A stretch of 21,674 bases of DNA from Phycisphaerae bacterium (GTDB taxonomy: Bacteria > Planctomycetota > Phycisphaerae > UBA1845 > Fen-1342): positions 1-21,674 of the forward strand of contig JASFQK010000058.1 of the NCBI GenBank assembly GCA_050115495.1. The letters are read 5' to 3'. Each line of letters starts with the position of its first letter. Within the stretch, counting starts at the first letter, position 1. The notes beneath the pieces are model-generated. The model worked only from the letters and a program-made list of their open reading frames with translations. It searched no databases and was not told where the DNA came from. Made by a program: the position numbers and the translations under genes. This document shows positions 1 through 18,026 of this stretch, piece after piece.

Positions 1-170
1 TCGCGTCGTTACTCTCGTGCATCGGCGTACTCCTCTGCCCAGCGTGGGCGGCTCGGAACCAATCTTGATCCCGAGAGTACGCCGCCTTTTTTCATCCCGC
101 CATCAACGAAATTCGGTTATAGCTCCCTGTCGTCCGCTTGATCTGTCAATCGTTCTTCCGCAGAAGTCGC

Positions 171-266
171 GGGGCGATTCTGTGTAAGTGGGTTGAGCAG
201 TACGATCCTGAATTGTCCGAGCAGCTGCGCAAGCCGGTCAAAGCCGGCAAGTGGCACATCATGGGC
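171..266 (+). pseudogene. Fragment of a GH38 alpha-mannosidase N-terminal catalytic domain
   Basis: Translates GAILCKWVEQYDPELSEQLRKPVKAGKWHIMG, resembling the GH38 segment (E)AILYxWVEEYEPELFxxIxxLVKxGxWHIMG. The expected continuation GWxxxPD is absent and a putative IS end follows at 278. Confidence 0.6.
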
Positions 267-277
267 AGTAGCAGCGC

Positions 278-322
278 TGACCTGCCCCCATTTCATGTAC
301 CAGTGGTCGTGAGAGTCTGGCC
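278..322 (-). mobile_element. Probable orphan terminal inverted repeat of an IS3-family element
   Basis: TGACCTGCCCCCATTTCATGTACCAGTGGTCGTGAGAGTC resembles IS3-family (IS407-group-like) ends beginning TGACCTGCCCCC. It lies 11 bp after the point where GH38 similarity stops. No transposase ORF is recognisable next to it. Confidence 0.45.
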
Positions 323-490
323 GTGTTCGATCCCGGCTGGGGGGGCCTCCGGTGCTCTCCGGTTGGGGCTTTGAAGCCGGGTGTTTGGGGGCAGCACCTT
401 CTGCCAACGCGAGTCGCCCGTGCGTGGCGTGAACCTCGCACGGGCGACCTGGAGGAGGGGACGCTTCAATGCGTCGCATTCAGACCATGA

Positions 491-1531
491 CTATCGTCGG
501 CGCAGCAAGCTCAGACCGCCCAGCGCCAGCAGCGTGAGCGTGGCGGGCTCAGGAACCTGCGCGACGCGAAAGCCCATAACTTGTGAGATCATACCTCCCC
601 AGCCGGCCGACATGCGACACCCTGCCAACATCGCCGCGGCGTTGGCGTCCAGCCAGAAAGAGCAAAAGCCCCGGATAGCGGGCTCGGAACCGTAGGGGCT
701 GTACTTCAGGGTCTCGACGAATTCCCATGCGTTCCCGCCCTGGTCATACGTGCCGTAGGGGCTGGCGGACAGAGAGAAATACCCGACCTCCGAGGTCCAG
801 TACGGTGCGCCGATCGTGACATCGCCGTCATAGTAGTTCGCCGAGTGCCCGGTATCACCTTCTGGATTCCCATTGTTCGGGAGATCAGGCAAAGAGAATT
901 GCATAGGCCACTGCCAGTAGTTCCCCGTCACGCCATCGTTCTTGTGATACGCGCTCTTGTACCACTCATCCTCGTTCGGAAGCACCCACGTGGCGTCCGG
1001 CTGACGCGTAACCTGCCGCAGTTGATCCGGCTCCGTGGCACCGTTCAGGTAGTACGAGCCGTCCTCCGTCGTGGACAGACCCTGCGCACCCGACGGCTGG
1101 CCGTTGTGCATCCAGTTCGCGAATCTGAGCGTGTCCTCCCACTGGATGTGCACTACGGGGCGCTTCGCCCAATCCTCTCCTACGCTGTACGTGTAGCTGC
1201 CGGGCGAGCCACTGCGGTGAATCCCGCATTGGAACTCGCCGCTACCCATGCCGGAGCTGTACAATCCATACGTGTCCGTCTGGGCCACGGCGTTCAGGAA
1301 CTCTGTGTACTCACTCGCCGTAATCTCATACGTGCCCATCTCGAACACGTAGTCCACCCCGCCACAGATGCGGTCTGGACCGAAGCCCCAGTAGGCACTC
1401 TCGCCAGACAGCTCTCCGGGGTTGCCCGGGTTGCCCACAGTGACGGTGTCAACGACGATCGTCGCCGACGCGCTGAGCACGCATCCGAAGACCGCCGCGA
1501 GCGTCACGAGACTGCCGATACACTTGAACAT
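491..1531 (-). CDS. FGE-sulfatase (SUMF1/CLec-fold) domain protein with signal peptide and PEP-CTERM anchor (FGE-1, type B core)
   Basis: 346 aa. Signal peptide ends ASA. Motifs TVGNPGN, MGTYEIT, RPVVHIQW, LPNEDEWYKSAY, YGTYDQGGNAWE, GFRVA, then VPEP-hydrophobic-RRR. SD GGAG precedes the ATG. Confidence 0.93.
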   Translation of the reverse strand: MFKCIGSLVTLAAVFGCVLSASATIVVDTVTVGNPGNPGELSGESAYWGFGPDRICGGVDYVFEMGTYEITASEYTEFLNAVAQTDTYGLYSSGMGSGEFQCGIHRSGSPGSYTYSVGEDWAKRPVVHIQWEDTLRFANWMHNGQPSGAQGLSTTEDGSYYLNGATEPDQLRQVTRQPDATWVLPNEDEWYKSAYHKNDGVTGNYWQWPMQFSLPDLPNNGNPEGDTGHSANYYDGDVTIGAPYWTSEVGYFSLSASPYGTYDQGGNAWEFVETLKYSPYGSEPAIRGFCSFWLDANAAAMLAGCRMSAGWGGMISQVMGFRVAQVPEPATLTLLALGGLSLLRRR

Positions 1532-1565
1532 GAGTTTCTCCTCTCCTCAAACATCATTCGACCAG

Positions 1566-1583
1566 TGGCTGGGCACCCAGTCA
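1566..1583. promoter_or_regulatory. Conserved palindrome 35 nt upstream of the FGE-1 start
   Basis: TGGCTGGG-CA-CCCAGTCA (one mismatch). Same motif and spacing as at 5815, 7006 and 11251. Confidence 0.6.
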
Positions 1584-1645
1584 TGCTGATCGGACTCCTC
1601 CGCTCGTACGCCCGGCTCAGCCGCCGGCGGCGTACGGTCCAATCC

Positions 1646-1680
1646 ACAGCACACGGCGCCTTCCCTACGCCGTGTGCTGT
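1646..1680 (-). terminator. 13-bp stem-loop just downstream of S8-a (terminator or mRNA-stabilising hairpin)
   Basis: ACAGCACACGGCG-9 nt-CGCCGTGTGCTGT, a perfect inverted repeat with no U-tract. Homologous to 7087-7115. Confidence 0.55.
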
Positions 1681-1691
1681 CTTGCTGTACA

Positions 1692-4535
1692 TCAACCGCC
1701 CGTGATCAGAGCCACGAACGGGCCGATGTCGAAGTTGTTCACTTCGCCGTCGCCGTTGACGTCGCCTGCCAGGCGATTGCAGTCCGGATACTGCTCGGCG
1801 TACCCGGCGGGGTCGGTAATCGCCAGCACGAACGGGCCGATGTCGAAGTTGTTCACGTTGCCGTCGCAGTTCAGGTCGCCCGGCGTGTAAGGGCATTCCT
1901 CCTCGATCAGCAGCGTCATCTGCTTCGCATCAGCCCGACCGAACGAGTCGATCACACGGAAGTATGGCTGATACGTACCGAACGCAGTCGGCGTACCCAT
2001 CAGACAACCGTCGGTTGTCAGATACATGCCCTCCGGCAGCGGATTCGGCTGGACGATCTCGAGCGAATCGGCATCGGTGAGGTTGGCGGCACCATCGTAC
2101 GCGCTGAGCAGATAGTGCACGCCGTCGCCGGCGGAGATGCCGACGGTGGGCGTCATGTTCGTGTTGCTTGAGCCGTAGTGGAAGTAGATGGCGCCGGTTT
2201 CGGTAAGCGTGCACGAGAAGTCGGCCTGGTTCGCGCACGGGTAGTGCCGGGCATTCCATCGGAAAGTGACCTCGCCAGCCACCGATGCGTCGATGTAGAT
2301 GCCGGTGTCGACGGTACAGTCGGTCTCCCAGTCATCCCACAACGGGGCGATGCGAATGTTGCTGAGCAGCTCGGTCGTGGTGTTGCTGCCGTCGCTGCTC
2401 GCGTCCGCACTGAAGTCGAGGTAACCGTTGCTGCTCGCGTACACCCCGCTGTACGGCTGGTTGAAGAACCAGAACGTAAACGGCAGCGCATATGGCCATT
2501 TGCCGTCATCCGCGTGCCACTCCATGGCCATACCGACCTCGGCGAAGAGGCTGGTGCCAAGATCGTGTTCCACATACGCGTCGCCCACGGCGGAGAACGT
2601 CAGCGCGGGCTGCCCCTGATCCACCTCGATATGGATGGGCGCGTATGGGGCGTTCAGACAACCGCTCGGGATACTCTCGGTCGTGATGGTCGGCGGACCG
2701 TACGCGGTAAGGATGGTCACCGTCGCCGGCTCGGACTCGCCGCCGTCCGGCGGCACGCCACCGTCATCGGCGGCGAACTGGAAGTCCTCGATGCCGTAGT
2801 AACCGCCGCTCGGGGAGTAGATCACAGCATTGCCGTGGTCGGACAACGTGTAGGGCAGATCCGCAGGCTGAATCACATAGCTGTTGCCGGCGTCGATCAG
2901 GTCCTGGCCGGGTAGTGAGTGGATGATGTAGGTCAGCGGGCCGCCGGGTTCACCATCCCGGTCAATCGCTACCAGCTCGATCTCCAATGCGGTATCGACG
3001 GAGGTGTCGTGGCTTGCGTCGTAAGCCGTCGGGGGCCTCAGGCCACAGCGCGACTCGGCCAGCCGCACGGCCTCGTAGGCATCGACAAGGCCGTGGCCGT
3101 ACCACGCGGGCGGGCCCTCCAGATCCAATGCGCTGTCGTACATGACCTGTTTGACCTCTTCGGGGGTGAGGTAGGGACAGGCCTGGAGTATCAGCGCCAC
3201 AACGCCCGCGACGTGCGGCGTGGCCATTGACGTGCCATCGTAAGAGTCATAGCCACCCGGCACGCTGGAGCGCACCTGCACACCCGGCGCTGAGAGTTCC
3301 GGCTTGGAGGCCACACTGCCATCGGGCGTGCAGTAGCTCGGGCCCTTCGACGAGAAGCTCGCCAGCGGATAGCCTTCCGTGTTGGCGTCGATCGCAGCTA
3401 CCGCACACGTTCGGTATCCGTCTGTGGCGCGGTCCGCCGGACGGCGGAGCGAGTAATAGTCGGGTCCTTCATTGCCGGCCGCGAATAGGATCACACATCC
3501 GGCCGCCTCGCAGGCGTCCAGGTAGGCCCAGAAGGCGTCGTTGCAGGGCTCATTGTACGGCGGGACGTCGTGATACGAGGCAATGCCCCACGAGTTCGAG
3601 CAGACCTGTGGGACATCCCAGGCGGTGGTCGGGTCGCCATCGGGGTCGATCAGCCACTCGTAAGCCTCCATTACGTTCTCGGCCATCTCATAGCCACCGA
3701 CGCCGGTGCGATCGATGACGGCGGCTTGAATCCACTCTGCACCTGGGGCCACACCGATCTCATCGCCCGGCGCGCCGCCGCAAAGCGTGCCCATCGTGTG
3801 CGTTCCGTGTCCATTCCAGGCGAGATCCTGCGGGAAACTCCAACCGGTCACGGGATCGAAGAGCGCCCACTCGGGATGGTAGGCATAGCGAGCATCCAGC
3901 CCCCGCCAACGGCTGGCCAGCGCGTCGTGAGTGCCGTCGACGCCGGTATCGAGCGTCGCGACGAGGATGCCTTCGCCCGTGTAACCCAGGGCCCAGGCCT
4001 CCGGCGCGCGAATGGCCACCAACCCCGGCTCGGGCGTCCGCGGGCCGCACGGCTCGGGTCCGCCGAACTGCTCCTCAGTATTCAGTGAGGGCACGGGTTC
4101 GATCAACTCGATCGGGAAATTGGAGTATACGGTATCGACGTCGGGGTGCCGGGCGAGTTCGAGGAGCTCGGACTTCGTGGCGTCAACCGCGAACGCGTTG
4201 ACGATCCAGAAGGACCTGAAGCGCTCGACCTGACCGGCTGCCTCGAGCTGCGTGAGGTGGTCGAGCAGGTTCCCGCGGGTGGCCGTCGCCGTTTGCTGTA
4301 GCGCGGTCACCACCAACTCGTGTCGCTCCTGTCGCGACATCCGCTCGACGCGGAACTGCTGCATCATGGTGTCGAGATCGACCTGGTCCTTCAGGTAGAC
4401 CAGGGCCGAGATGGTATCGTCGGGGCCGGCGACATCCAGGACGTCCTGAAGACCTGGGTGGATGTCCCCAGCCCACACGGGCGTGGCCAATGCTGATACT
4501 ACCAGCAGCCCGCATAGGATTCGGCTTATTCTCAT
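1692..4535 (-). CDS. Secreted S8 subtilisin-like serine peptidase with propeptide, Ig-like and nidogen-like modules and C-terminal dockerin-like domain (S8-a)
   Basis: Catalytic motifs ATLDTG, HGTHTMG, AAGN, GTSMATPHVAG. Signal peptide MRISRILCGLL..PVWA. Start placed at ATG 4535 because GGAG lies 7 nt upstream (ORF track starts at 4580). C-terminus GDLNCDGNVNNFDIGPFV..GDVNGDGEVNNFDIGPFV. Confidence 0.93.
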   Translation of the reverse strand: MRISRILCGLLVVSALATPVWAGDIHPGLQDVLDVAGPDDTISALVYLKDQVDLDTMMQQFRVERMSRQERHELVVTALQQTATATRGNLLDHLTQLEAAGQVERFRSFWIVNAFAVDATKSELLELARHPDVDTVYSNFPIELIEPVPSLNTEEQFGGPEPCGPRTPEPGLVAIRAPEAWALGYTGEGILVATLDTGVDGTHDALASRWRGLDARYAYHPEWALFDPVTGWSFPQDLAWNGHGTHTMGTLCGGAPGDEIGVAPGAEWIQAAVIDRTGVGGYEMAENVMEAYEWLIDPDGDPTTAWDVPQVCSNSWGIASYHDVPPYNEPCNDAFWAYLDACEAAGCVILFAAGNEGPDYYSLRRPADRATDGYRTCAVAAIDANTEGYPLASFSSKGPSYCTPDGSVASKPELSAPGVQVRSSVPGGYDSYDGTSMATPHVAGVVALILQACPYLTPEEVKQVMYDSALDLEGPPAWYGHGLVDAYEAVRLAESRCGLRPPTAYDASHDTSVDTALEIELVAIDRDGEPGGPLTYIIHSLPGQDLIDAGNSYVIQPADLPYTLSDHGNAVIYSPSGGYYGIEDFQFAADDGGVPPDGGESEPATVTILTAYGPPTITTESIPSGCLNAPYAPIHIEVDQGQPALTFSAVGDAYVEHDLGTSLFAEVGMAMEWHADDGKWPYALPFTFWFFNQPYSGVYASSNGYLDFSADASSDGSNTTTELLSNIRIAPLWDDWETDCTVDTGIYIDASVAGEVTFRWNARHYPCANQADFSCTLTETGAIYFHYGSSNTNMTPTVGISAGDGVHYLLSAYDGAANLTDADSLEIVQPNPLPEGMYLTTDGCLMGTPTAFGTYQPYFRVIDSFGRADAKQMTLLIEEECPYTPGDLNCDGNVNNFDIGPFVLAITDPAGYAEQYPDCNRLAGDVNGDGEVNNFDIGPFVALITGG
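1713..1856. repeat. Identical 30-bp repeat encoding the two dockerin-like loops (copies 1713-1742, 1827-1856, 7147-7176, 7261-7290)
   Basis: CACGAACGGGCCGATGTCGAAGTTGTTCAC occurs four times and encodes VNNFDIGPFV on the minus strand. Confidence 0.9.
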
Positions 4536-4660
4536 GACTTCACTCCATCTGTGTAACGGCACTGCCGGAGACGCTGACATGAGAATGCGTCATCCAGCGA
4601 GATCGTGATTGTCTCGAACGGCTACGTTGAGCGAGCTTTGAAGTGTCACCCGCGCCCGCC

Positions 4661-4722
4661 CACCGCTGTTGGTCGGAGCAGCGGTGAGCAGGCGGCGAGC
4701 GACTCGGAGATGGACATTCTGC
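4661..4722. repeat. Intergenic hairpin-containing repeat downstream of FGE-2 (homologous to 5870-5931; hairpin related to 10107-10140)
   Basis: CACCGCTGTT-GGTCGG-AGCAGCGGTG stem, followed by AGCAGGCGGCGAGCGACTCGGAGATGGACATT, which closely matches the copy at 5870-5931. Confidence 0.75.
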
Positions 4723-4738
4723 GACGATCAGACGCGCG

Positions 4739-5782
4739 CTAGCGCCGACGCCACACAGCGACGCCGGCCAGCGCCAGCAGCGTGAGCGTAGCGGGCTCGG
4801 GAACCTGCGCGAGGCGGAAGCCCATAACGTCTACGGACGCACCCGACCAGCCGCCTTCGAAGCGAACCCCCGCCAACATCGCCGGGGCACCGAAGTCCAG
4901 CCAGTAGAAGCAGAAGCCCCGCATGATGGGGATTTCGTGCCCGGGGTCGCCTTCCAGGGTCTCGACGTATTCCCATGCGTTCCCGCCCTGGTCATACGTG
5001 CCGTACGGACTGGCGGACAGTGAGAAATACCCGACTTCCGAGGTCCAGTACGGCGGGCCGATCGTGGCATCGCCGTCACAGTAGTTTGCCGAGTGTCCGC
5101 TATCACCGTCTGGATTCCCATTGTCCGGGATATCAGGCATGGAGCATTGCACAGGCCACATCCAGTAGTTCCCCGTCACGCCATCGTTCTTGTGATACGC
5201 GGACTTGTACCACTCATCCTCGTTCGGAAGCACCCACGTGGCGTCCGGCTGACGCGTAACCTGCCGCAGTTGATCCGGCTCCGTGGCACCGTTGAGGTAG
5301 TACGAGCCGTCCTCCGTCGTGGACAGACCCTGCGCACCCGACGGCTGGCCGTTGTGCATCCAGTTCGCGAATCTGAGCGTATCCTGCCACTCGATGTGCA
5401 GTACGGGGCGCTTCGCCCAATCCTCTCCTACGCTGTACGTGTAGCTGCCGGGCGAGCCACTGCGGTGAATCCCGCATTGGAACTCGCCGGTACACATGCC
5501 GGGGCTGTACAACGCATACGTGTCCGTCTGGGCCACGGCGTTCAGGAACTCTGTGTACTGACCCGCCGTGATCTCATACTTGCCCATCTCGTACACGTAG
5601 TCTACCCCGCCACAGATGCGGTCTGGACCGAAGCCGTAGTAGCCTACTCCCGCCCCAGACAGTTCTCCGGGGTTGCCCGGGTTGCCCACGGTGACGGTGT
5701 CGACGACGATCGTTGCCGACGCGCTGAGCACGCATCCGAAGACCGCCGCAAGCGTCATGAGCCTGCCAACACACTTCAACAT
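4739..5782 (-). CDS. FGE-sulfatase domain protein with PEP-CTERM anchor (FGE-2, type B core)
   Basis: Start at ATG 5782 (MLKCVG..) after SD AAGGAG. Same FGE motifs as 491-1531. Ends VPEPATLTLLALAGVAVWRRR. Confidence 0.93.
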   Translation of the reverse strand: MLKCVGRLMTLAAVFGCVLSASATIVVDTVTVGNPGNPGELSGAGVGYYGFGPDRICGGVDYVYEMGKYEITAGQYTEFLNAVAQTDTYALYSPGMCTGEFQCGIHRSGSPGSYTYSVGEDWAKRPVLHIEWQDTLRFANWMHNGQPSGAQGLSTTEDGSYYLNGATEPDQLRQVTRQPDATWVLPNEDEWYKSAYHKNDGVTGNYWMWPVQCSMPDIPDNGNPDGDSGHSANYCDGDATIGPPYWTSEVGYFSLSASPYGTYDQGGNAWEYVETLEGDPGHEIPIMRGFCFYWLDFGAPAMLAGVRFEGGWSGASVDVMGFRLAQVPEPATLTLLALAGVAVWRRR

Positions 5783-5814
5783 GGATTTCTCCTTTCCGCT
5801 AGTGCCACACGACC

Positions 5815-5836
5815 AATGGCTGGACACCCAGCCATT
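5815..5836. promoter_or_regulatory. Conserved palindrome upstream of FGE-2
   Basis: AATGGCTGG-ACAC-CCAGCCATT, a perfect 9-bp inverted repeat at the same spacing to the ATG as the other copies. Confidence 0.6.
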
Positions 5837-5869
5837 CTGACCAGAATCCTTGCACCGCCCATGCCCACC

Positions 5870-5931
5870 CACCGCCGTTGATTACAACAGTGGTGAGCAG
5901 GTGGCGAGCGACTCAGAGAAGGACATTTGTG
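5870..5931. repeat. Intergenic hairpin-containing repeat downstream of FGE-3
   Basis: CACCGCCGTTG-ATTA-CAACAGTGGTG imperfect stem, plus a tail matching 4661-4722. Confidence 0.7.
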
Positions 5932-5948
5932 CAGTGGTCAAGTCGACG

Positions 5949-6971
5949 TTACCGTCGACGCCACACAGTGATGCCGGCCAAGGCGATCAGGGCAAGCGAA
6001 CTCGGCTCAGGCACCCGGGCCAGGCGGAACCCGACTTCGCAACGACCGTCATTCTGACCGTCAAGGTGAAAGGCAGACCACAGTGCGTACCAGTAGAAAT
6101 CGATCAGCATCGCAGCTTGTCCCCGAATGACTAGAGTCCCGGCTTGGGCCCCGTCGGAGATGATGCTCATTTCGAAGACATTGCCGCCTTGGTCGTATGT
6201 GCCGTAAGGGCTGGCAGATAAACTGAAATACCCGGCGGGTGTCGTGTAATACGGGGCCCCGATCGTCGCATCATAGCCGTCGATGTAGTTCGCCGAATTC
6301 CCGGTATCACCCTCAGGGTTTCCGTTATCCGGGATCGAGGGGAGGTCAGTGCCCATGGGGAAATCCCAGTAGTTCCCCGTCACGCCGTCGTTCTTGTGAT
6401 ACGCCGCCTTGTACCACTCATCCTCGGTTGGGAGCACCCACGTGGCGTTCGCCTGCCGAACGAGCGTAGTCGGATACTCGACCCCGTTCAGATAGTAAGA
6501 ACCATCTTCAGTGGTCGAGAGATCCTGTCCCCCGGTCGGCTGACCGTTGTGCATCCAGTTGGCAAACCGGGCGGCGTTTCCCAGAGTCAACCAGTTTACC
6601 GGCCGCATTGCCCAATCGTCCGAAACACTGTAGTGATACATGCCCTGCACCGTGTAGCGATTGATTCCGCAAGGGCACTCGGCGTTCCACATGAGCTCGT
6701 TGTACAAACCGTACGTGTCGAATCTCGCCACGGCGTTGAGGAACGCGGTGTACTGACCGGCGGTGATCTCGTACTTGCCGATGTCGTACACATAGTCCAC
6801 GGCGCCACAAATGCGGTCCGCCCCCAATCCGCCTGCACTCTCGCCGGACAACTCGCCGGTGTTTCCCGGATTGCCCACGGGGACGGTGTCAATGACGACC
6901 GCCGCCGACGCGCTGAGCACGCACCCGAAGACCGCCGCGAGCGTCACGAGCCTGCCAATACGCTCAAACAT
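5949..6971 (-). CDS. FGE-sulfatase domain protein with PEP-CTERM anchor (FGE-3, type A core)
   Basis: 340 aa. Signal peptide, IGKYEIT, RPVNW, LPTEDEWYKAAY, YDQGGNVFE, VGFRLARVPEP..WRRR. SD GGAG. Confidence 0.93.
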   Translation of the reverse strand: MFERIGRLVTLAAVFGCVLSASAAVVIDTVPVGNPGNTGELSGESAGGLGADRICGAVDYVYDIGKYEITAGQYTAFLNAVARFDTYGLYNELMWNAECPCGINRYTVQGMYHYSVSDDWAMRPVNWLTLGNAARFANWMHNGQPTGGQDLSTTEDGSYYLNGVEYPTTLVRQANATWVLPTEDEWYKAAYHKNDGVTGNYWDFPMGTDLPSIPDNGNPEGDTGNSANYIDGYDATIGAPYYTTPAGYFSLSASPYGTYDQGGNVFEMSIISDGAQAGTLVIRGQAAMLIDFYWYALWSAFHLDGQNDGRCEVGFRLARVPEPSSLALIALAGITVWRRR

Positions 6972-7005
6972 GAGTGTCTCCTCTCCGCTAGTGCCACACG
7001 ACCAG

Positions 7006-7023
7006 TGGCTGGGCTCCCAGCCA
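7006..7023. promoter_or_regulatory. Conserved palindrome 35 nt upstream of FGE-3
   Basis: TGGCTGGG-CT-CCCAGCCA, a perfect inverted repeat. Confidence 0.6.
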
Positions 7024-7086
7024 TGCTGACCGCAATCCTCAGCTCGTACGCCTCGCTCGGCCGTCGGTGACGCACTGTCCGGTCCA

Positions 7087-7115
7087 GCACACGGCGCTCC
7101 ACGAGCGCCGTGTGC
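7087..7115 (-). terminator. 13-bp stem-loop downstream of S8-b
   Basis: GCACACGGCGCTC-CAC-GAGCGCCGTGTGC, a perfect inverted repeat with no U-tract. Confidence 0.55.
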
Positions 7116-7125
7116 GACCTCGGGC

Positions 7126-9969
7126 TTAGCCGCCCGTGATCAGGGCCACGAACGGGCCGATGTCGAAGTTGTTCACTTCTCCGTCGCCGTTGACGTCGCC
7201 CGCCAGGTGGTTGCAGTCTGGATACTGCTCGGCATACCCGGCGGGATCGGTGATCGCCAGCACGAACGGGCCGATGTCGAAGTTGTTCACGTTGCCATCG
7301 CAGTTCAGATCGCCCGGCGTGTAGGGGCATTCCTCCTCGATCAGCAACGTAATCTGTTTCGTGTCGGCGCGGCCGAACGAGTCGACCACGCGGAAGAACG
7401 TCTCATACAGACCGCTCGAGGTCGGCGTGCCCGTCAGGCAGCCGTCGGTCGTCAGATGCATGCCATCAGGCAGCGGTATCGGCCTCAGCTCGAGCGAGTT
7501 GGCATTCGTAAGGCTGGTGGCCCCGTCGTACTGACACAGCAGGTAACGCTCGCCGTCGCCGGCGGAGATGCCGACCGTGGGCGTCATGCCGGTGTTGGTC
7601 GGGCCGTAGTGGAAGTAGATGGCGCCGGCCTGCGTGAGGGTGCACGAGAAGTCGCCCTCCTCGTCGCACGGGTATTGCTCGGCCTGCCAGCGGAACGTGA
7701 CCTGGCCTGCGACCGAGTCGTCGATGTAGATGTCGTCGCCACCACCGCACTCGGTCTCCCAGTCGTCCCAGAGCGTGGCGATCCGCACGTTGCTGAGCAG
7801 TTCGGCCGTAGTGTTCGTGCGGTCGCTGCCCATGCCGGACGCGAAGTCGAGGAAACCGTTGGTGTGCACGTATACGGTGCTGTACGGCTGATCGAAGAAC
7901 TGGAACTCGAACGGCAGCGTGTACGCCCAGTTAGCATCGTCCATGTGCCACCCCCGGGCGATACCGACCTCGGCGAAGAGGCTGGTGCCCAGGTCGTTCT
8001 CTGCATACGCGTCCGTCGCCACGCTGAAGGTCAACTGCGGCTGGCCTTCGCTTACCTCGATCCAGAAGGGCGTATACGGTGCATTCAGACAGCCGTTCGG
8101 GAAGCTCTCGGTAACGATCACCGGCGGACCGTAGAAGGTCAGGACGGTTACCGTGCCCAGGTCGGACTCGCCGCCTTCCGGCGGGGTGCCGCCGTCATCG
8201 GCCGTGAACTGGAAGTCCTCGACGCCGTAGTAACCGCCGGCGGGAGAGTAGACCACGACGTTGCCATGGTCGGAGAGCGTGTAGGGTAGCTCTGTGGCCT
8301 GAATGACGTGGCTGTTGCCGGGGTCGATCAGATCCTGAGTGGGCAGCGACTGGATGATGTACGACAGCGAGCCGCCGGGCTCACCGTCGCGGTCGACGGC
8401 AACCAGTGCGATCTCGAGTGGGGTATCGACGGCGGTCTCGAAGCTGCCGTCGTAGGTATACGGCGGGGCTGGGCTGCACGCCAACTCGGCCAGCAGCACG
8501 GCTTGGTACGCATCGATCATACCGTAACCGTAGGTGTTGTCCTTGCCCGCAGGGCCCAGGTCGAGTGCGCTATCGTAGAGAATCTGTTTCACGTCGTCGG
8601 GGAAGAGCTGAGGACAAACCTGGAGGATGAGCGCCACAACGCCGGCGACGTGCGGCGAGGCCATCGACGTGCCGTTCATGTTGCCGTATCCGCCACCAGG
8701 CACGCTGGAACGTACATTCATGCCGGGTGCGGCGATGTCGGGTTTGATGGCGATGCTGCCGTCGGGCGTGCAGTAGGTCGGGCCACGCGACGAGAAGTAC
8801 GCGATGGGAAACTCGGCGTCGTGGGCGTCCACGGCGGCGACGGCGCACGTCCGGTAATCGTCGGAAGCGCGGTCCCCCGGACGTCCAACGGTGTTGCTGC
8901 CTGGGCCCGAGTTGCCGGCGGAGAAGAGGATCACGCAGCCGGCTGTCTCGCAGGCATCCAGGTAGGACCAGAAGCCGTCGTTGCAGGGCTCGTTGTACGG
9001 CGGAACGTTGTGGCCCAGGACGATGCCCCACGAATTCGAGCAAACCCACGGCACATCCCAGACAGTCGCCGGGTTGCCATCGGGGTCGATCAACCACTGG
9101 AAGGCCTCGATCGCATCCTCGATGGTCTCCCAAAGACCGACGCGGTCGATGACGGCGGCCTGAATCCATTCGGCTCCCGGGGCGACACCGACCTCGTCGC
9201 CGGGGGCGCCGCCGCAGATCGTGCCCATGGTGTGCGTGCCGTGTGTATCGCCGTCATGCGGGAAGGTCCAGGAGGTTACGGGATCGAAGAACGCCCACTC
9301 GGGATTGAAGGCGTACCGTTCATCGAGACCACGCCAGCGACTGGCCAGCGCCGGGTGCGTGCCGTCGACGCCGGTATCGAGCGTCGCGACGAGGATGCCT
9401 TCGCCGGTGTAGCCCAGGGCCCAGGCCTCAGGTGCGCGAACAGCGACCAGCCCAGGCTCGGGCGTTCGCGGACCGCACGGCTGAGGTTCCTCAGGCTCCA
9501 CTTCCGCGTCACCTGTCGGCACGGGTTTGATCAGTTCGATCGGGTAGTTGAAGTAGATCGTGTCGACGTCGGGGTGGTTGGCAAGCTCGACGATCTCGGC
9601 CTTCGTGGCGTCGACCGCGAAGGCGTTGACGATCCAGAAGGACCTGAAACGCTGAATGCGGCCCTCGGTCTGGAGCTTCGCCAGATGGTCGCGCAGATTG
9701 CCGCGAGTGGACGTCGCCGTCTCATGTAACGCCGTCACGGCCAACTCGTGCCGCGCCTGTCGGGATGCCCGCTCCGCTTTGAGCTGCGCGGTCATGAGAT
9801 CGAGGTCGACCTGGTGGTTGAGGTAGACCAGGGTGGAGACGGTTTCATTCGGGTCGGCGGCATCCAGGACGTCCTGAAGACCGGGATGGATGTTACCCGC
9901 CCATGCCGGGATGGCCATTGCCGACAACAACACCAACAGCCGTACACAGACGACACTTCCTGTACGCAT
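7126..9969 (-). CDS. Secreted S8 subtilisin-like serine peptidase with dockerin-like C-terminus (S8-b), full-length paralog of S8-a
   Basis: ATLDTG, HGTHTMG, SAGN, NGTSMASPHVAG; colinear with 1692-4535. ATG 9969 is preferred over GTG 9978 because of the spacing from GAGGAG. Confidence 0.93.
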   Translation of the reverse strand: MRTGSVVCVRLLVLLSAMAIPAWAGNIHPGLQDVLDAADPNETVSTLVYLNHQVDLDLMTAQLKAERASRQARHELAVTALHETATSTRGNLRDHLAKLQTEGRIQRFRSFWIVNAFAVDATKAEIVELANHPDVDTIYFNYPIELIKPVPTGDAEVEPEEPQPCGPRTPEPGLVAVRAPEAWALGYTGEGILVATLDTGVDGTHPALASRWRGLDERYAFNPEWAFFDPVTSWTFPHDGDTHGTHTMGTICGGAPGDEVGVAPGAEWIQAAVIDRVGLWETIEDAIEAFQWLIDPDGNPATVWDVPWVCSNSWGIVLGHNVPPYNEPCNDGFWSYLDACETAGCVILFSAGNSGPGSNTVGRPGDRASDDYRTCAVAAVDAHDAEFPIAYFSSRGPTYCTPDGSIAIKPDIAAPGMNVRSSVPGGGYGNMNGTSMASPHVAGVVALILQVCPQLFPDDVKQILYDSALDLGPAGKDNTYGYGMIDAYQAVLLAELACSPAPPYTYDGSFETAVDTPLEIALVAVDRDGEPGGSLSYIIQSLPTQDLIDPGNSHVIQATELPYTLSDHGNVVVYSPAGGYYGVEDFQFTADDGGTPPEGGESDLGTVTVLTFYGPPVIVTESFPNGCLNAPYTPFWIEVSEGQPQLTFSVATDAYAENDLGTSLFAEVGIARGWHMDDANWAYTLPFEFQFFDQPYSTVYVHTNGFLDFASGMGSDRTNTTAELLSNVRIATLWDDWETECGGGDDIYIDDSVAGQVTFRWQAEQYPCDEEGDFSCTLTQAGAIYFHYGPTNTGMTPTVGISAGDGERYLLCQYDGATSLTNANSLELRPIPLPDGMHLTTDGCLTGTPTSSGLYETFFRVVDSFGRADTKQITLLIEEECPYTPGDLNCDGNVNNFDIGPFVLAITDPAGYAEQYPDCNHLAGDVNGDGEVNNFDIGPFVALITGG

Positions 9970-10106
9970 GGCTTTCACTCTCCTCTTGTTTCGCAGACGC
10001 CACCCGAGATCCTCAGGCCCCTTACGCGGCCGGCCCCGGGGGCGGTGACAGTGTCCCCCTCGCTACCGCCCGCGGCCCGCGGATGTCCGAGCCTTTCACC
10101 TCGCCT

Positions 10107-10140
10107 CACTCACCGCTGTCGGCTGGGACAGCGGTGAGTG
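10107..10140 (-). terminator. 14-bp stem-loop downstream of FGE-4
   Basis: CACTCACCGCTGTC-GGCTGG-GACAGCGGTGAGTG, a perfect inverted repeat with no U-tract. Confidence 0.55.
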
Positions 10141-10167
10141 GGGCTACGGGTCCCGGTGCAGAACGTG

Positions 10168-11214
10168 CTACCGGCGACGCAACAGACTGAGGCTGGCCAG
10201 GCCCAGAAGGGCGAGCGAGCTCGGCTCAGGCACCCGGGCGAGGCGGAAACCAACCTCGGAACGCTCGCTGTCGTTGTCCATCCCATTTCCGACGCGCATC
10301 CATGAGATCAGTCCGGCATTGAAGAAGTCCAAGAGAGCGGCGCTCTGACCTCGCACCACCATCGAGCCGAGAGTGGAGTCAGACTGTTCGCACATCTCGA
10401 ACACGTTGCCGCCCTGGTCGTACGTGCCGTACGGGCCGGCGGACAGTCCGAAATAGCCGACCTCGGTCATCCAGTACGGAGCGCCGATCGTGGCGTCGCC
10501 GTCAACCACGTCGAGGAAGTTCCCCGAGCGTCCGGAGTCACCACCCGGAACGCCGTTGTCGGGCAGTTCAGGGTAATCAAAGCCATCGCGGAAGGGGAAA
10601 TCCCAGTAGTTCCCCGTAGCGCCGTCGTTCTTGTGGTATGCGGCCTTGTACCATTCGTCCTCGCTGGTGACCACCCACGTGGCGTTCGCCGTGCGCGTCA
10701 CCACGCCCAGCTCCTCGCGCGTCATGGCACCGTTCAGGTAGTACGAGCCATCTTCGGTGGTCGCGAGCCCCTGCGGGCCGGTCGGCTGACCGTTGTGCAT
10801 CCAGTTGGAGAATCGGGCAGCATCTCCCCATGAGACCCAGTTCACCGGCCGCTTCTCCCAGTCTTCCCCTACGCTGTAGGTGTAGTTGCCCGGCGTACCG
10901 CTACGCGAGATTCCACAGCGAACGTCGCAGGTCCACATCGTCGGGCTGTACAGGCCATACGTGTCCGTGGCCGCGACGGCGTTCAGGAACTCAGTGTACT
11001 GGCCGGCGGTGATCTCGTACTTGCCGATGTCGTACACGTAGTCCACGGCGCCGCAGACGCGGTCATCGCCCATCCCGCCGACACTCGAGCCGCTGAGCTC
11101 TCCTGTGTTCCCCAAATTCCCTACGGTGACCGTGTCGACGAGCACGGTTGCCGACACACTTCCGACACAAAGGCAGACGGCCGCGAACATCATCAGTCTT
11201 CCAACGCACTTCAT
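10168..11214 (-). CDS. FGE-sulfatase domain protein with PEP-CTERM anchor (FGE-4, type A core)
   Basis: Start at ATG 11214 (MKCVGRLMM..) after GGAG. RPVNWVSWGDAARFSNW, SEDEWYKAAY, YDQGGNVFE, VGFRLARVPEPSSLALLGLASLSLLRRR. Confidence 0.93.
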   Translation of the reverse strand: MKCVGRLMMFAAVCLCVGSVSATVLVDTVTVGNLGNTGELSGSSVGGMGDDRVCGAVDYVYDIGKYEITAGQYTEFLNAVAATDTYGLYSPTMWTCDVRCGISRSGTPGNYTYSVGEDWEKRPVNWVSWGDAARFSNWMHNGQPTGPQGLATTEDGSYYLNGAMTREELGVVTRTANATWVVTSEDEWYKAAYHKNDGATGNYWDFPFRDGFDYPELPDNGVPGGDSGRSGNFLDVVDGDATIGAPYWMTEVGYFGLSAGPYGTYDQGGNVFEMCEQSDSTLGSMVVRGQSAALLDFFNAGLISWMRVGNGMDNDSERSEVGFRLARVPEPSSLALLGLASLSLLRRR

Positions 11215-11250
11215 TGTGGATTTCTCCATTCCGCTAATACCGTTGGGCAA

Positions 11251-11270
11251 GCGGCTGGACACCCAGCCGC
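11251..11270. promoter_or_regulatory. Conserved palindrome upstream of FGE-4
   Basis: GCGGCTGG-ACAC-CCAGCCGC, a perfect inverted repeat. The outer pairs differ from the other copies but remain complementary. Confidence 0.6.
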
Positions 11271-11381
11271 ACAAACTGCCCATATCTGGCTTCTCAGTGC
11301 CGCCGGGCTCAGCCGACAGCGAGGCAGGCCGCACGTCAGCGTAGGCACGGCTCTCCAGCGCACGCCCTCTTCCGCCCGTGA

Positions 11382-11537
11382 TTGCCGGCGGCGGAGCGGA
11401 GCTAGACCGGCCACGGCCCGGAGGGGCGGGGAGGCTGGCTCAGGAGCGCGGGCGAGGCGGCGGGTTTTGGCAAGGGGTACTCTTCTCCCCGTGCGTTGCT
11501 GTCCACCGAGCGGGCGCCCAGCCAACGACGTGATCAT
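11382..11537 (-). pseudogene. Internally deleted, decayed PEP-CTERM gene relic at the head of the operon
   Basis: Strong SD AAGGAGGAGG and ATG 11537. RLARAPEPASPPLRAVAGLAPLRRR-Q aligns without gaps to RLARVPEPSSLALLGLASLSLLRRR-stop. The position of the stop codon now reads CAA, so the frame runs on to 11211. Confidence 0.7.
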
Positions 11538-11615
11538 CTTCCTCCTCCTTGGTTGCCAGGGTCCGGCGGCGGATGGCGAGGGCCAGTTACGCCGGGAACC
11601 GGTAACACGAGCTTC

Positions 11616-11644
11616 ATCCTAGTTGCATTGAGCGTTTATGTCAA
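11616..11644 (-). promoter_or_regulatory. Sigma70-type promoter for the FGE/S8 operon
   Basis: Minus strand TTGACA (11644-11639), 17-bp spacer, TAGGAT (11621-11616), within the only AT-rich patch of the region. Confidence 0.75.
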
Positions 11645-11646
11645 CG

Positions 11647-11658
11647 GTTTTTAAAAAC
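11647..11658. promoter_or_regulatory. AT-rich palindrome between divergent -35 boxes (operator or shared UP element)
   Basis: GTTTTTAAAAAC, a perfect 12-bp palindrome. Confidence 0.45.
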
Positions 11659-11663
11659 GACTA

Positions 11664-11692
11664 TTGTAATTACCGTCGCCCCCCCGTATCCT
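11664..11692 (+). promoter_or_regulatory. Sigma70-type promoter, probably giving a leaderless mRNA for the gene at 11700
   Basis: TTGTAA (11664-11669), 17-bp spacer, TATCCT (11687-11692). The ATG follows after 7 nt and there is no SD. Confidence 0.6.
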
Positions 11693-11699
11693 GTTATGT

Positions 11700-12908
11700 A
11701 TGGCACAGGGAAAGCCCATTTCGACCGGCCCCGCATCATTCGAGCAGCAGACGGCCGAGACGATTGCCCGTGTTCGCCGAGCGTTCGCCGACATTGTCCG
11801 GGCTCTGCCCCAGCCGATCACGCGGGCCTGCGAACTTCATCAGACGCTCCAGATCGACAAAGTGCTCGGCTGGCGGGTCTATAACGTGATTCGCTGCTCG
11901 GATCCGTTCGCGGCTGCCCGCTACGTGCCGGGCACCAGCGGCGTGAAGATCTTCCTGCGGGCCGCCCAGAAGCGGGGCGTGCCGCCGGCCCTGACCGAAA
12001 CTGCCACGGCTGCGTTATCGGACTACCAGAAGCTGCAACGTGTGCACGCCGGCAACCGCAAGCGTCTCGACATGCTGCTGGCCGCCCACTCGGACGAAGG
12101 ACGGGCGGAAGTGGACATCGCGCATCGCCGACTGGCCTTCGAGGGTAACTGCTACATCTGGGGCGCGTCGGCCGATGTGCAGTTCCGAACGACGTTCATG
12201 GGGTTCTCGCAGACGTCCGGCGAATTGGATATCGCCACGTTGGGTGGCTTGATCGGGTTGCAGCGTCTGCGTCCCGACGTGCGCTGGCCGCTGGGTAAGG
12301 CCACCTGTACGAATGATGCGGGGGAGGCGATACCGGCGTACACGAACGAGCCGATCTACGACGTGCAACACCCGGACGAAACCGCCCTGAAGCTGTTCAT
12401 GAGTCATCCCCAGCCACGGATCGAGTGCCGCCGCACGGAGCAGGTGCTGAAATGGGAGCTACTGCCCGGTCCCGTGGGCAAGACGGGGGCAGTGAGCTGT
12501 GTCACCGGGGAGATCATGCGGCGCTGCGGCCCCATTCGTCGGCGCGAGGGTGAGGCTTCGGCCACGTACGTTACGCGCGTTCACACGCCGGCCGAGCTGC
12601 TCATCGTCGACCACATCGTTCACCGGGATTTGTTTGGCCCGTTGCAGCACTCTGTGTCGGTCTACGGCGGCATCGTCGACGGCACACGAGGCGAGAGCGA
12701 CCGCGTGGAGGTCCGAGAGACGGTTCAGCTCCTGGGCTCAGTGGACGACCTGCTGCATACGCCGGAGATCCCGCGGTATACGGAAATGACGGGGCATGTG
12801 TTCGAGCGACTCGGCTGGGACCCCGGCCAGTTCGACATCTACCGCCTTCGGCTGGAATTCCCCATTATGCTGAGCGAAGTCCGTCTGACTCACCCGTTGC
12901 GCGGATAG
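11700..12908 (+). CDS. Hypothetical protein, putative transcriptional regulator (N-terminal HTH-like segment)
   Basis: 402-aa ORF with GC3-rich codons and no signal peptide or TM segment. RACELHQTLQIDKVLGWRVYNVI resembles a helix-turn-helix. Divergent from the operon. Function is inferred. Confidence 0.7.
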   Translation: MAQGKPISTGPASFEQQTAETIARVRRAFADIVRALPQPITRACELHQTLQIDKVLGWRVYNVIRCSDPFAAARYVPGTSGVKIFLRAAQKRGVPPALTETATAALSDYQKLQRVHAGNRKRLDMLLAAHSDEGRAEVDIAHRRLAFEGNCYIWGASADVQFRTTFMGFSQTSGELDIATLGGLIGLQRLRPDVRWPLGKATCTNDAGEAIPAYTNEPIYDVQHPDETALKLFMSHPQPRIECRRTEQVLKWELLPGPVGKTGAVSCVTGEIMRRCGPIRRREGEASATYVTRVHTPAELLIVDHIVHRDLFGPLQHSVSVYGGIVDGTRGESDRVEVRETVQLLGSVDDLLHTPEIPRYTEMTGHVFERLGWDPGQFDIYRLRLEFPIMLSEVRLTHPLRG

Positions 12909-12941
12909 CGGCACGCCGCGAGAGCAGGGGGGCCAGCGAGC

Positions 12942-13103
12942 GTTGCCGGGGGTACGCTCGAAGATGTCTCCTGTCCACATTGCGGTTACGATCTCCGGCA
13001 GTCGCCCATCGATTCAAGTGATGGGGCCGCGGTGCGTTCGGCGTGTGGCTGCACCTGGCGAATGCCCGCGGCCCTGTTCGTCGCAGGTCAGACCGATGGA
13101 TGA
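12942..13103 (+). pseudogene. 3' relic of a zinc-ribbon membrane protein gene (paralog of 13096-13593)
   Basis: Frame not in the ORF track: VAGGTLEDVSCPHCGYDLRQSPIDSSDGAAVRSACGCTW aligns without gaps to VAAAMLSHQRCPHCGYDLRMLPADSDDGATICPECGCAW. The third Cys is replaced by Arg and there is no start codon. Confidence 0.75.
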
Positions 13104-13593
13104 AGGGACGCCGGCACAACTCGGGCGGGCCGGGCGTATCCGGGACGCCCGCGGGCGCTCCGTGACACAGCTCGACCCGGTGGCGCTCTGCTTGTTGCGC
13201 CAGCACAATGTGATCGAGGCCGACACGCTGCGCGCGATCGCCGATGCGAAGGGCGTGAGGGTCGCGCTTGTGGAACGCGTGGCCTTGATCTGCGGCCTGT
13301 GCGGCGCACTGGCCGTGATCAGCCTCTTCACGTTCGCCCTGGTCACCGGGGACATCCGCGACGCCCCTCTCGCGAAATCCGCCGGCTTGGTGTACCTCTG
13401 CTCCCTGCCGTGGATCATGTGGTACGGCATCAAACGTCGGCGGTTCGGCTACGTCGCGGCGGCGATGCTCAGCCACCAGCGCTGCCCGCATTGCGGCTAC
13501 GACTTGCGCATGCTGCCGGCCGATTCGGACGATGGCGCGACGATCTGTCCCGAGTGTGGATGCGCCTGGCAATTGGGCGAGGAGCGGGGATGA
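13096..13593 (+). CDS. Membrane protein with two TM helices and C-terminal zinc ribbon (CPHCGYDL..CPECG)
   Basis: Start at ATG 13096 (MDEGTP..); the longer ORF-track extension overlaps the relic. Two hydrophobic segments and a CxxC..CxxC motif. Confidence 0.8.
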   Translation: MDEGTPAQLGRAGRIRDARGRSVTQLDPVALCLLRQHNVIEADTLRAIADAKGVRVALVERVALICGLCGALAVISLFTFALVTGDIRDAPLAKSAGLVYLCSLPWIMWYGIKRRRFGYVAAAMLSHQRCPHCGYDLRMLPADSDDGATICPECGCAWQLGEERG

Positions 13594-14051
13594 GCTGGAT
13601 ATGGCCTGACTACATCCATCCGGGCTTGCCGCTCAGCAGGGGGGAGCGCGTGGCGATCCACCGCGCCGCCTGGCGGCTGTGGTGGTCGGACAAATGGAAT
13701 CTCGCGCTGCACCTGCTGGTTTGTGCCGGTTGCACGGTTGCCCTGCTGAACGCGGCGGACCTGGGCGGCCGGGCGGCGGGGGCGCTGGGCATCGGCGGCA
13801 TTCTGTACAAGGTCTGTCGGGCGGGATCGCTGCTGCTCGTGCTGATCTCTGCGGTCATCATCATTCGCGCCGTGCTCGGTCGCTGCCGCTTCGCCCCGTA
13901 CATCTATGAAGCGATACGGCGGCAGGGCTACGACGTCTGCACGAAGTGCGGATACTGGCTGAAGGGGCTGCACGACGACGTCGACCGCTGCCCGGAGTGT
14001 GGCGCGGAACGCCCGCCTCCGCTCGATGCAAGTCCACAAGCTGGCGGTTGA
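13590..14051 (+). CDS. Membrane protein with C-terminal zinc ribbon (CTKCGYWL..CPECG)
   Basis: ATGA overlap with the upstream gene and GAGGAG SD. MSWIWPDY.., two TM segments, CxxCGYxLxGL..CPECG. Confidence 0.8.
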   Translation: MSWIWPDYIHPGLPLSRGERVAIHRAAWRLWWSDKWNLALHLLVCAGCTVALLNAADLGGRAAGALGIGGILYKVCRAGSLLLVLISAVIIIRAVLGRCRFAPYIYEAIRRQGYDVCTKCGYWLKGLHDDVDRCPECGAERPPPLDASPQAGG

Positions 14052-18002: not shown

Positions 18003-18026
18003 AACGGGTCCATCGCAACACACTCC

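What the first reader, a model, noticed from the sequence alone, without database searches (positions are those of the whole stretch)
491..12908. Candidate cell-surface system: PEP-CTERM CLec-fold proteins interleaved with dockerin-bearing subtilases, opposite a dedicated putative regulator
Seen: six co-oriented secreted-protein genes form two triplets (FGE-S8-FGE) behind one TTGACA-17-TAGGAT promoter. Each protease is flanked by its own closely related FGE pair (type A cores at 10168 and 5949 around S8-b; type B cores at 4739 and 491 around S8-a). Established: PEP-CTERM is an exosortase anchoring signal, the FGE-sulfatase domain has a C-type-lectin fold, and dockerin-like repeats bind Ca2+ and mediate attachment. 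Inference: the FGE pairs are cognate partners of each protease (substrate-capture proteins, surface docks or inhibitors), forming a modular surface proteolysis unit that I do not recognise as described.
Basis: partly seen in the sequence, partly recalled or inferred. Interest (0 to 1): 0.8.

Follow-up and report, generated by a model that had tools for sequence, protein, structure and literature searches.

The report
Surface-protein array under a private regulator
The six surface-protein genes are real but are likely a local duplication rather than matched lectin-protease pairs; the notable part is the gene facing them, one of 57 copies of an unnamed family that sits opposite secreted-protein genes and likely switches each set through its own short palindromic DNA site.

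Summary
The anatomy is right: four FGE/CLec-fold PEP-CTERM genes and two intact S8 proteases with dockerin-like tails lie behind a TTGACA-17-TAGGAT site. Cognate pairing is not supported. None of 40 fetched S8 or FGE loci from other genomes held both genes. The four FGE genes form one local clade. The "type B" pair is a recent copy (88% silent-site identity) that differs most in the lectin-type binding segment. The "type A" pair is barely closer than cross pairs. No DGR template was found.

The facing ORF (11700-12908) is the find. It belongs to an unnamed family (3,115 clusters, no Pfam) with 57 copies in this genome. Of 56 copies with an upstream neighbour, 38 face a PEP-CTERM or dockerin-tailed gene (background 59 of 3,662). 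The model has an HTH, XRE-like N-domain and a ribophorin/aminopeptidase-N-like beta domain, and is predicted to dimerise. Back-to-back sigma70 promoters flank a palindrome. The window's 12-mer occurs four times in the genome, always beside a family member, and operator likeness weakly tracks recognition-helix likeness. Binding, sign of control and signal are untested. An earlier scan note had flagged this family.

The parts
491..1531 (-). FGE/CLec-fold PEP-CTERM protein B2 (signal peptide; no CxxxxC pair in the C-terminal variable segment)
1692..4535 (-). Subtilase S8-a: signal peptide, I9 propeptide, intact catalytic motifs, Ig-like domain, dockerin-like tail
4739..5782 (-). FGE/CLec-fold PEP-CTERM protein B1, a recent copy or conversion product of B2
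   Evidence: 88% DNA identity with B2 including upstream DNA; 140 of 159 four-fold sites identical
5949..6971 (-). FGE/CLec-fold PEP-CTERM protein A2
7126..9978 (-). Subtilase S8-b, 72% identical to S8-a; duplicated together with the following FGE gene
   Evidence: 6181-9924 matches 732-4496 at 76%
10168..11214 (-). FGE/CLec-fold PEP-CTERM protein A1, first intact gene after the promoter
11385..11460 (-). Decayed PEP-CTERM-coding remnant in the 398-nt leader, inside a 108-aa ORF (11211-11537) whose stop overlaps the A1 start; likely the relic of a deleted FGE gene
   Evidence: matches 10171-10246 at 74%; the leader aligns with the promoter and FGE start of the closest paralogous locus C53
11616..11644 (-). 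Predicted sigma70 promoter of the array (TTGACA-17-TAGGAT)
11647..11658 (.). Perfect 12-bp palindrome GTTTTTAAAAAC between the two -35 boxes; predicted operator
   Evidence: 4 matches with at most 1 mismatch in 5.97 Mb, all beside a family member
11664..11692 (+). Predicted sigma70 promoter of the regulator (TTGTAA-17-TATCCT), 7 nt before its ATG (predicted leaderless mRNA)
   Evidence: ATG/GTG 6-7 nt after the -10 at 18 of 33 paralog promoters
11700..12908 (+). 402-aa predicted one-component regulator R: HTH (res 43-65) in an XRE-like helical domain, dimerisation helix (132-154), beta-sandwich C-domain

Best explanation
The window holds six secreted-protein genes that likely grew by local duplication, facing a gene whose product is predicted to be a dimeric helix-turn-helix regulator that would bind the palindrome between two back-to-back promoters and switch the array. 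SHOWN: gene content, the duplication pattern, 57 paralogs and their linkage to secreted cargo, the promoter-palindrome layout. PREDICTED: the HTH/XRE-like N-domain, the beta-sandwich C-domain and the homodimer. INFERRED: DNA binding; control of both promoters; one transcript; ligand sensing by the C-domain; exosortase anchoring of the FGE proteins as non-catalytic binders with diverging C-terminal binding faces; docking of the proteases by the genome-wide tail, not by the FGE proteins. I favour repression relieved by a ligand (about 50%), because the target promoter is near consensus and the site abuts its -35, over activation from the -43 position (about 35%). On this reading the FGE and S8 genes are co-regulated cargo, not obligate partners.
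For: LINKAGE: 38 of 56 R copies with an upstream neighbour face a PEP-CTERM or dockerin-tail gene, vs 59 of 3,662 other genes. The 38 targets fall in 28 families. In other genomes 17 of 42 R genes face such cargo, and 10 more face proteins with another conserved C-terminal tail, picked by eye afterwards.
PROMOTER AND OPERATOR: a divergent promoter call at 37 of 57 loci vs 250 of 1,130 control regions; palindromes of at least 7 of 9 pairs at 22 of 37 vs 43 of 250 (p 9e-8). The window 12-mer occurs 4 times in the genome, all beside R genes, two of them the closest paralogs at 75% and 55%. Recognition-helix similarity predicts operator similarity (Mantel r 0.11, p 0.001; 0.088, p 0.008 after controlling for the C-domain), while the C-domain does not (-0.03 after controlling for the helix) (67 loci).
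STRUCTURE: model pLDDT 91 with helix-turn-helix at 43-65. About 12 of the 50 top rows for the N-domain are XRE-type or other DNA-binding domains; the top row is the ChiS DNA-binding domain (Z 6.8, rmsd 3.6, 93 aligned) and BldD aligns over 71 of 71 residues (Z 5.6, rmsd 2.7). Homodimer score 0.78 vs best control 0.00; this mark was reached by 20 of 30 solved homo-pairs and 1 of 23 monomers; contacts agree at least 91%, pLDDT at least 83; the HTH is not among the listed contacts.
DUPLICATION. NO FGE-S8 LINKAGE ELSEWHERE.
Against: The N-domain Z scores (5-7) are in the range of unrelated helical bundles, which are mixed into the same list; Foldseek gave nothing meaningful. The window palindrome alone scores 6 of 9 pairs, which 32% of shuffles reach. 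In other genomes only 14 of 42 loci got a divergent promoter call and the palindrome excess was small (mean 6.29 vs 5.66; 5 of 14 at 7 or more). The Mantel r is small and the loci are related. AT-rich promoter DNA favours such palindromes. 15 of 42 outside loci showed no recognisable tailed cargo. There is no expression, start-site or binding evidence.
Confidence: 0.7

Rival explanations
1. One reading: each protease works with its own flanking FGE pair (dock, substrate catcher or inhibitor), as a modular surface proteolysis unit.
For: The FGE-S8-FGE order occurs twice and the FGE genes pair by triplet in the tree (B 100, A 85). A PEP-CTERM gene precedes this S8 type near an R gene in three other loci (own C8, L157, and L035 at 2.4 kb).
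Against: 0 of 40 outside loci hold both genes. The PEP-CTERM proteins before S8 in those other loci are not FGE and are unrelated to each other. The B pair is homogenised at silent sites (140 of 159) more than the proteases are (244 of 378), and differs most in the putative binding segment (pN 0.38 vs 0.05 in the core), the opposite of a shared partner. The closest R paralog faces an FGE gene with no S8 beside it.
Confidence: 0.08
2. The array is co-regulated for a shared task, such as capturing and digesting one class of extracellular protein, without direct FGE-protease contact.
For: One promoter, a shared orientation and no intergenic U-tract terminator. Proteases and binders share the surface destination. 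A peptide-degrading cohesin-dockerin 'planctosome' has been proposed for related bacteria (PMC6461901, passage).
Against: Compatible with the best explanation but adds a purpose that no call tests. PEP-CTERM and dockerin-tail genes neighbour each other generally (23 adjacent co-oriented pairs).
Confidence: 0.3
3. R is not a transcription factor but a cytoplasmic chaperone, export factor or antidote for the neighbouring secreted proteins, and the palindromes are a by-product of AT-rich promoters.
For: The C-domain's best match is the ribophorin I luminal domain of oligosaccharyltransferase (Z 10.6, rmsd 3.7, 184 aligned), a protein-handling fold. The N-domain matches are middling.
Against: Divergent rather than operonic placement (48 of 56), leaderless starts, cargo in 28 unrelated families, palindrome excess over control promoters and helix-operator covariation.
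Confidence: 0.15
4. The FGE proteins are targets of a diversity-generating retroelement.
For: They carry the FGE-type CLec fold with variation concentrated at the C-terminal segment, as in Mtd and TvpA (PMC5006420, passages). The genome has three RT genes.
Against: No template repeat with adenine-specific differences was found for any of the four 3' ends or near the short RT. Differences include all bases and indels.
Confidence: 0.03

Closest known systems
One-component regulators with an XRE/Cro-C1 HTH and a C-terminal sensor domain (MmyB-like 3pxp, BldD 2ewt; structures, their biology recalled)
   Same: N-terminal five-helix HTH domain, predicted dimer, palindromic site, gene divergent from its target.
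   Different: No Pfam, NCBIfam or PDB sequence match. The C-domain resembles the ribophorin I / M1 aminopeptidase N-terminal / VIT beta-sandwich. It is expanded to 57 copies and tied to secreted cargo.
PrsK/PrsR/PrsT control of PEP-CTERM genes (Haft et al. 2006, PMC1569441; abstract and passages read)
   Same: Dedicated transcriptional control of PEP-CTERM genes through an upstream DNA motif.
   Different: That system is one global sigma-54 two-component activator in Proteobacteria. Here the promoters are sigma70-like, each locus has its own predicted regulator and site, and no PrsR reaches the TIGR02915 cut-off (best 393.5 vs 502.6).
'Planctosome' hypothesis (Andrei et al. 2019, PMC6461901; one passage and a figure legend read)
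   Same: Phycisphaerae peptidases with dockerin modules, proposed to act at the surface.
   Different: It involves M12B/M14 metallopeptidases and cohesin scaffolds, not S8 or FGE proteins. This genome has 180 dockerin-like tails and 2 cohesin-like hits, neither near the window.
FGE-subclass CLec-fold binders Mtd and TvpA (PMC5006420; passages read)
   Same: FGE-sulfatase domain with a variable C-terminal segment.
   Different: No template repeat or adenine-specific variation; the variation arises between paralogs; PEP-CTERM anchor.

Membership tests
XRE/Cro-C1 one-component regulator (R) | Sequence match to an HTH family model | tested here: not met
   0 of 42 members hit an HTH family at E<=0.1; no NCBIfam hit
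XRE/Cro-C1 one-component regulator (R) | Cro/C1-type helical fold | tested here: inconclusive
   Many XRE-type rows at Z 5-6.8, mixed with helical bundles
XRE/Cro-C1 one-component regulator (R) | Homodimer | tested here: met
   Prediction only: 0.78 vs best control 0.00; mark reached by 20 of 30 solved pairs and 1 of 23 monomers
XRE/Cro-C1 one-component regulator (R) | Palindromic site at the adjacent promoter | tested here: met
   22 of 37 vs 43 of 250 in this genome; 4 of 4 genome matches lie beside R genes; weaker in other genomes
XRE/Cro-C1 one-component regulator (R) | Sequence-specific DNA binding and effect on transcription | not testable with these tools
   Needs EMSA and a reporter
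Catalytic formylglycine-generating enzyme (SUMF1) | CxxxxC catalytic pair in the C-terminal segment (motif recalled, from no call) | tested here: not met
   Absent from the four window proteins; present in 1 of 115 homolog segments
FGE-subclass CLec fold | FGE-sulfatase domain | tested here: met
   PF03781 above cut-off in all four; weak profile match to SUMF2 1y4j, E 4e-4; not folded here
DGR target protein | Template repeat differing at adenines, with a nearby RT | tested here: not met
   assembly 92% complete
PEP-CTERM/exosortase substrate | Signal peptide, PEP motif, hydrophobic helix and basic tail; exosortase in the genome | tested here: met
   PF07589 in all four; one exosortase
Subtilase S8 | Asp/His/Ser motifs, oxyanion Asn, I9 propeptide | tested here: met
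Type I dockerin | Pfam Dockerin_1 match and cohesin binding | tested here: inconclusive
   No Pfam hit for the window tails; a relative's tail hits below cut-off (E 8e-4); two cohesin-like genes elsewhere in the genome; binding untested
PrsR/sigma-54 PEP-CTERM regulon | PrsR above cut-off | tested here: not met
   0 matches over the TIGR02915 cut-off

The most novel reading that the evidence does not exclude
R is a large undescribed family (over 3,000 clusters at 50% identity) of one-component regulators that pair a diverged XRE-like HTH with a ribophorin/aminopeptidase-N-like sensor domain. Planctomycetes use it as a switchboard of private, largely orthogonal on/off switches for individual surface-protein loci, whatever C-terminal sorting tag the cargo carries, with a recognition-helix-to-operator code that can be read from genomes.
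Probability: 0.5. Interest if true: 0.72.

Novelty: new variant of a known kind. Interest (0 to 1): 0.52.

Why it matters
How planctomycetes control their hundreds of PEP-CTERM and dockerin-tailed surface proteins was not described in the papers I found; the described PrsR/sigma-54 route is proteobacterial. A family with one regulator, one short operator and one sigma70 promoter pair per locus gives directly testable predictions in E. coli, assigns a function to thousands of 'hypothetical proteins', points to a new candidate sensor domain, and may supply dozens of orthogonal switches. The FGE-S8 arrangement itself is ordinary local expansion.

Tried and rejected
DGR origin of the FGE variation: rejected.
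Catalytic FGE: rejected on the motif.
Conserved FGE-S8 linkage: not found. The metagenome scan with the S8 alignment returned 24 loci matching only a middle domain at 26-42% identity and was uninformative.
Foldseek on whole R gave TM-scores of 0.25 or less; on the N-domain, nothing at E<=0.001.
PDB sequence search with the R profile gave only two weak rows, E 0.42 and 0.81.
ESM Atlas: only unnamed clusters, and no usable named hit.
A genome-contig scan with R confirmed no relative, so no organism names came from it.
No RNA holder was listed. No Rfam match in 1-14000.
An FGE-S8 complex was not folded; the one complex job went to the R dimer.
The tree is the quick one; the careful search did not finish.
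Literature: seven searches showed no description of the R family or of an FGE-S8 unit. I saw listings for most and passages of three papers; no supplements were read, subscription journals are not covered, and the planctosome paper's supplement may hold dockerin domain lists.
Full report
OBSERVATION. The window is contig C58 of a 5.97-Mb, 92% complete assembly. Homolog labels point to Planctomycetota, class Phycisphaerae. Six minus-strand genes run FGE-S8-FGE-FGE-S8-FGE from 11214 down to 491. All four FGE genes carry PF03781 and PEP-CTERM; both proteases carry S8 and I9 with intact catalytic motifs, and the genome has one exosortase. The promoter-like site at 11644-11616 is the best of 3 found against 2.6 expected. 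Intergenic gaps are 154-203 nt, each with a GC-rich hairpin. Co-transcription is plausible but not shown.

PAIRING. In a quick tree of 57 proteins (15 from this genome, 42 close homologs) the four FGE proteins form one group (99), with the B pair at 100 and the A pair at 85. DNA 6181-9924 matches 732-4496 at 76%, and the B genes match each other at 88% including upstream DNA. Four-fold silent sites are identical at 140 of 159 for the B pair, 244 of 378 for the two proteases, and 44-53% for all other FGE pairs, including the A pair. The B pair is therefore a copy or conversion younger than the protease duplication. Between B1 and B2, pN is 0.05 in the core and 0.38 in the C-terminal segment; pS also rises, from 0.11 to 0.30, so either a conversion boundary or relaxed or diversifying selection. 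That segment forms the ligand-binding site in FGE-type CLec proteins (PMC5006420, passages). A CxxxxC pair (motif recalled) is in 1 of 115 homolog segments, so these are likely binders, not enzymes. No DGR template exists for them in this assembly. A decayed PEP-CTERM tail in the leader suggests another copy was lost.

LINKAGE ELSEWHERE. In 40 relatives, 7 had both families, never on one contig. In 300 class-level genomes, 11 had the S8 and 76 the FGE; 3 had both, on different contigs (few candidates scored per genome). Of 40 fetched loci, 21 held S8, 18 held FGE and none held both; S8 tandem arrays without FGE (5 loci) and FGE tandems without S8 occur. Many loci end at contig borders, so this is 'not found', not absence. 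The dockerin-like tail is on 180 of 4,096 proteins called by my own gene finder, 167 of them at the C-terminus; two cohesin-like genes lie elsewhere. The cognate-partner reading has no support.

THE FACING GENE (R). 11700-12908 has no Pfam or NCBIfam match. It has 57 paralogs here and 3,115 clusters at 50% identity with E<=0.001; every name returned for the 10 clusters looked up was 'hypothetical protein'. It was found in 21 of 24 same-family genomes and 19 of 300 phylum-level genomes. Of 56 copies with an upstream neighbour, 48 are divergent and 38 face a PEP-CTERM or dockerin-tail gene, against 59 of 3,662 other genes. The 38 targets belong to 28 families. Among 42 R genes in 40 loci of other genomes (best hits, not independent), 17 face PEP-CTERM or dockerin-type cargo, 10 face proteins with another shared C-terminal tail (recognised by eye afterwards), and 15 neither.

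DNA SIGNALS. My sigma70 scan called a divergent promoter at 37 of 57 R loci, against 250 of 1,130 control divergent regions. The 44 nt upstream of the -35 hold a palindrome of at least 7 of 9 pairs in 22 of 37, against 43 of 250 controls (p 9e-8), with centres near 10 and 20 nt from the -35. ATG/GTG follows R's own -10 by 6-7 nt in 18 of 33. The window's site scores only 6 of 9 in that test, but it is a perfect 12-mer at 11647-11658. With one mismatch allowed it occurs 4 times in the genome, each beside an R gene, including the 75% and 55% paralogs; one of these faces a lone FGE gene and the other unrelated PEP-CTERM proteins. Across 67 loci with a promoter call (45 of 57 own copies, 22 from 29 fetched loci; the rest lacked a call or upstream DNA), recognition-helix similarity tracks operator similarity (r 0.11, p 0.001; 0.088, p 0.008 controlling for the C-domain) and the C-domain does not. 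The effect is small and kinship is not fully removed. In the 42 outside genes the signal is weaker: 14 promoter calls, mean 6.29 vs 5.66.

STRUCTURE. The model (pLDDT 91) has a helical N-domain with a helix-turn-helix at 43-65 and a beta C-domain. The C-domain matches ribophorin I (Z 10.6, rmsd 3.7, 184 aligned), then M1 aminopeptidase N-terminal and VIT domains; a shared fold shows no function. The N-domain folded alone gives the ChiS DNA-binding domain first (Z 6.8) and about 12 XRE-type or other DNA-binding rows in 50, mixed with bundles, which is inconclusive. Two copies are predicted to dimerise symmetrically through helix 138-155: 0.78 vs best control 0.00, a mark reached by 20 of 30 solved pairs and 1 of 23 monomers; contacts agree at least 91%, pLDDT at least 83.

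MECHANISM. Inferred: an R dimer binds the palindrome, centred about 43 nt upstream of the array's predicted start and about 47 nt upstream of its own, and so controls both promoters; the C-domain likely senses a ligand. Repression is somewhat more likely than activation because the target promoter is near consensus. The FGE proteins would be exosortase-anchored binders with diverging faces, and the proteases would be held by the general tail.

KNOWN AND NEW. It works like an XRE-type one-component regulator but fails the sequence test for that family. It differs from PrsK/PrsR sigma-54 control of PEP-CTERM genes (PMC1569441, abstract and passages; no PrsR over cut-off). The planctosome proposal (PMC6461901, passage) is the nearest idea for the proteases. 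Seven literature searches showed no account of R or of an FGE-S8 unit. I had found it before reading that note, which is not independent support; its short listing does not mention the operator, covariation or dimer results.

VERDICT. Observation mostly right; cognate-pair idea not supported; regulator idea supported and broader than proposed. New variant of a known kind, interest 0.52.

Noticed in passing
L111, L114, L116, L117, L121, L124, L129, L130, L131, L134 (divergent genes): Proteins of other planctomycete lineages end in a shared C-terminal tail of about 70 aa (ending near an S-N-G motif), perhaps another sorting or attachment tag; Pfam named no such domain in the 8 scanned.
   Followed up: partly
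window:11211-11537 (-): 108-aa leader ORF with a strong RBS and a decayed PEP-CTERM motif, whose stop overlaps the A1 start (ATGA); relic gene or translational coupling.
   Followed up: partly
window:15865-17727 (-): ORF with an HExxH motif followed by a very long Asp/Glu-rich tail; no Pfam or NCBIfam hit. The true start is probably internal.
   Followed up: no
window:12943-14051 (+): Two small membrane proteins ending in double CxxC zinc ribbons, directly downstream of R; one has a paralog on C51.
   Followed up: no
window:14100-15788 (-) and 17052-19436 (-): TPR-containing proteins, one with a zinc ribbon and a membrane C-terminus.
   Followed up: no
window:19674-21487: IS66 transposase fragment and a Replic_Relax gene at the contig end, suggesting a mobile-element edge.
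   Followed up: no
L003 (G000:C8:78700-80250): Short reverse transcriptase downstream of a small XRE-like gene, with no DGR template nearby; retron- or defence-like.
   Followed up: partly
G000:C25:69359-72502 and C3:23058-26012: Two related proteins of about 1,000 aa with cohesin-like domains, one also dockerin-tailed: the only candidate docks found for about 180 tails.
   Followed up: partly
L149, L152, L153, L154, L155: The same S8 subfamily forms tandem pairs or triplets with differing C-termini in five other genomes.
   Followed up: no
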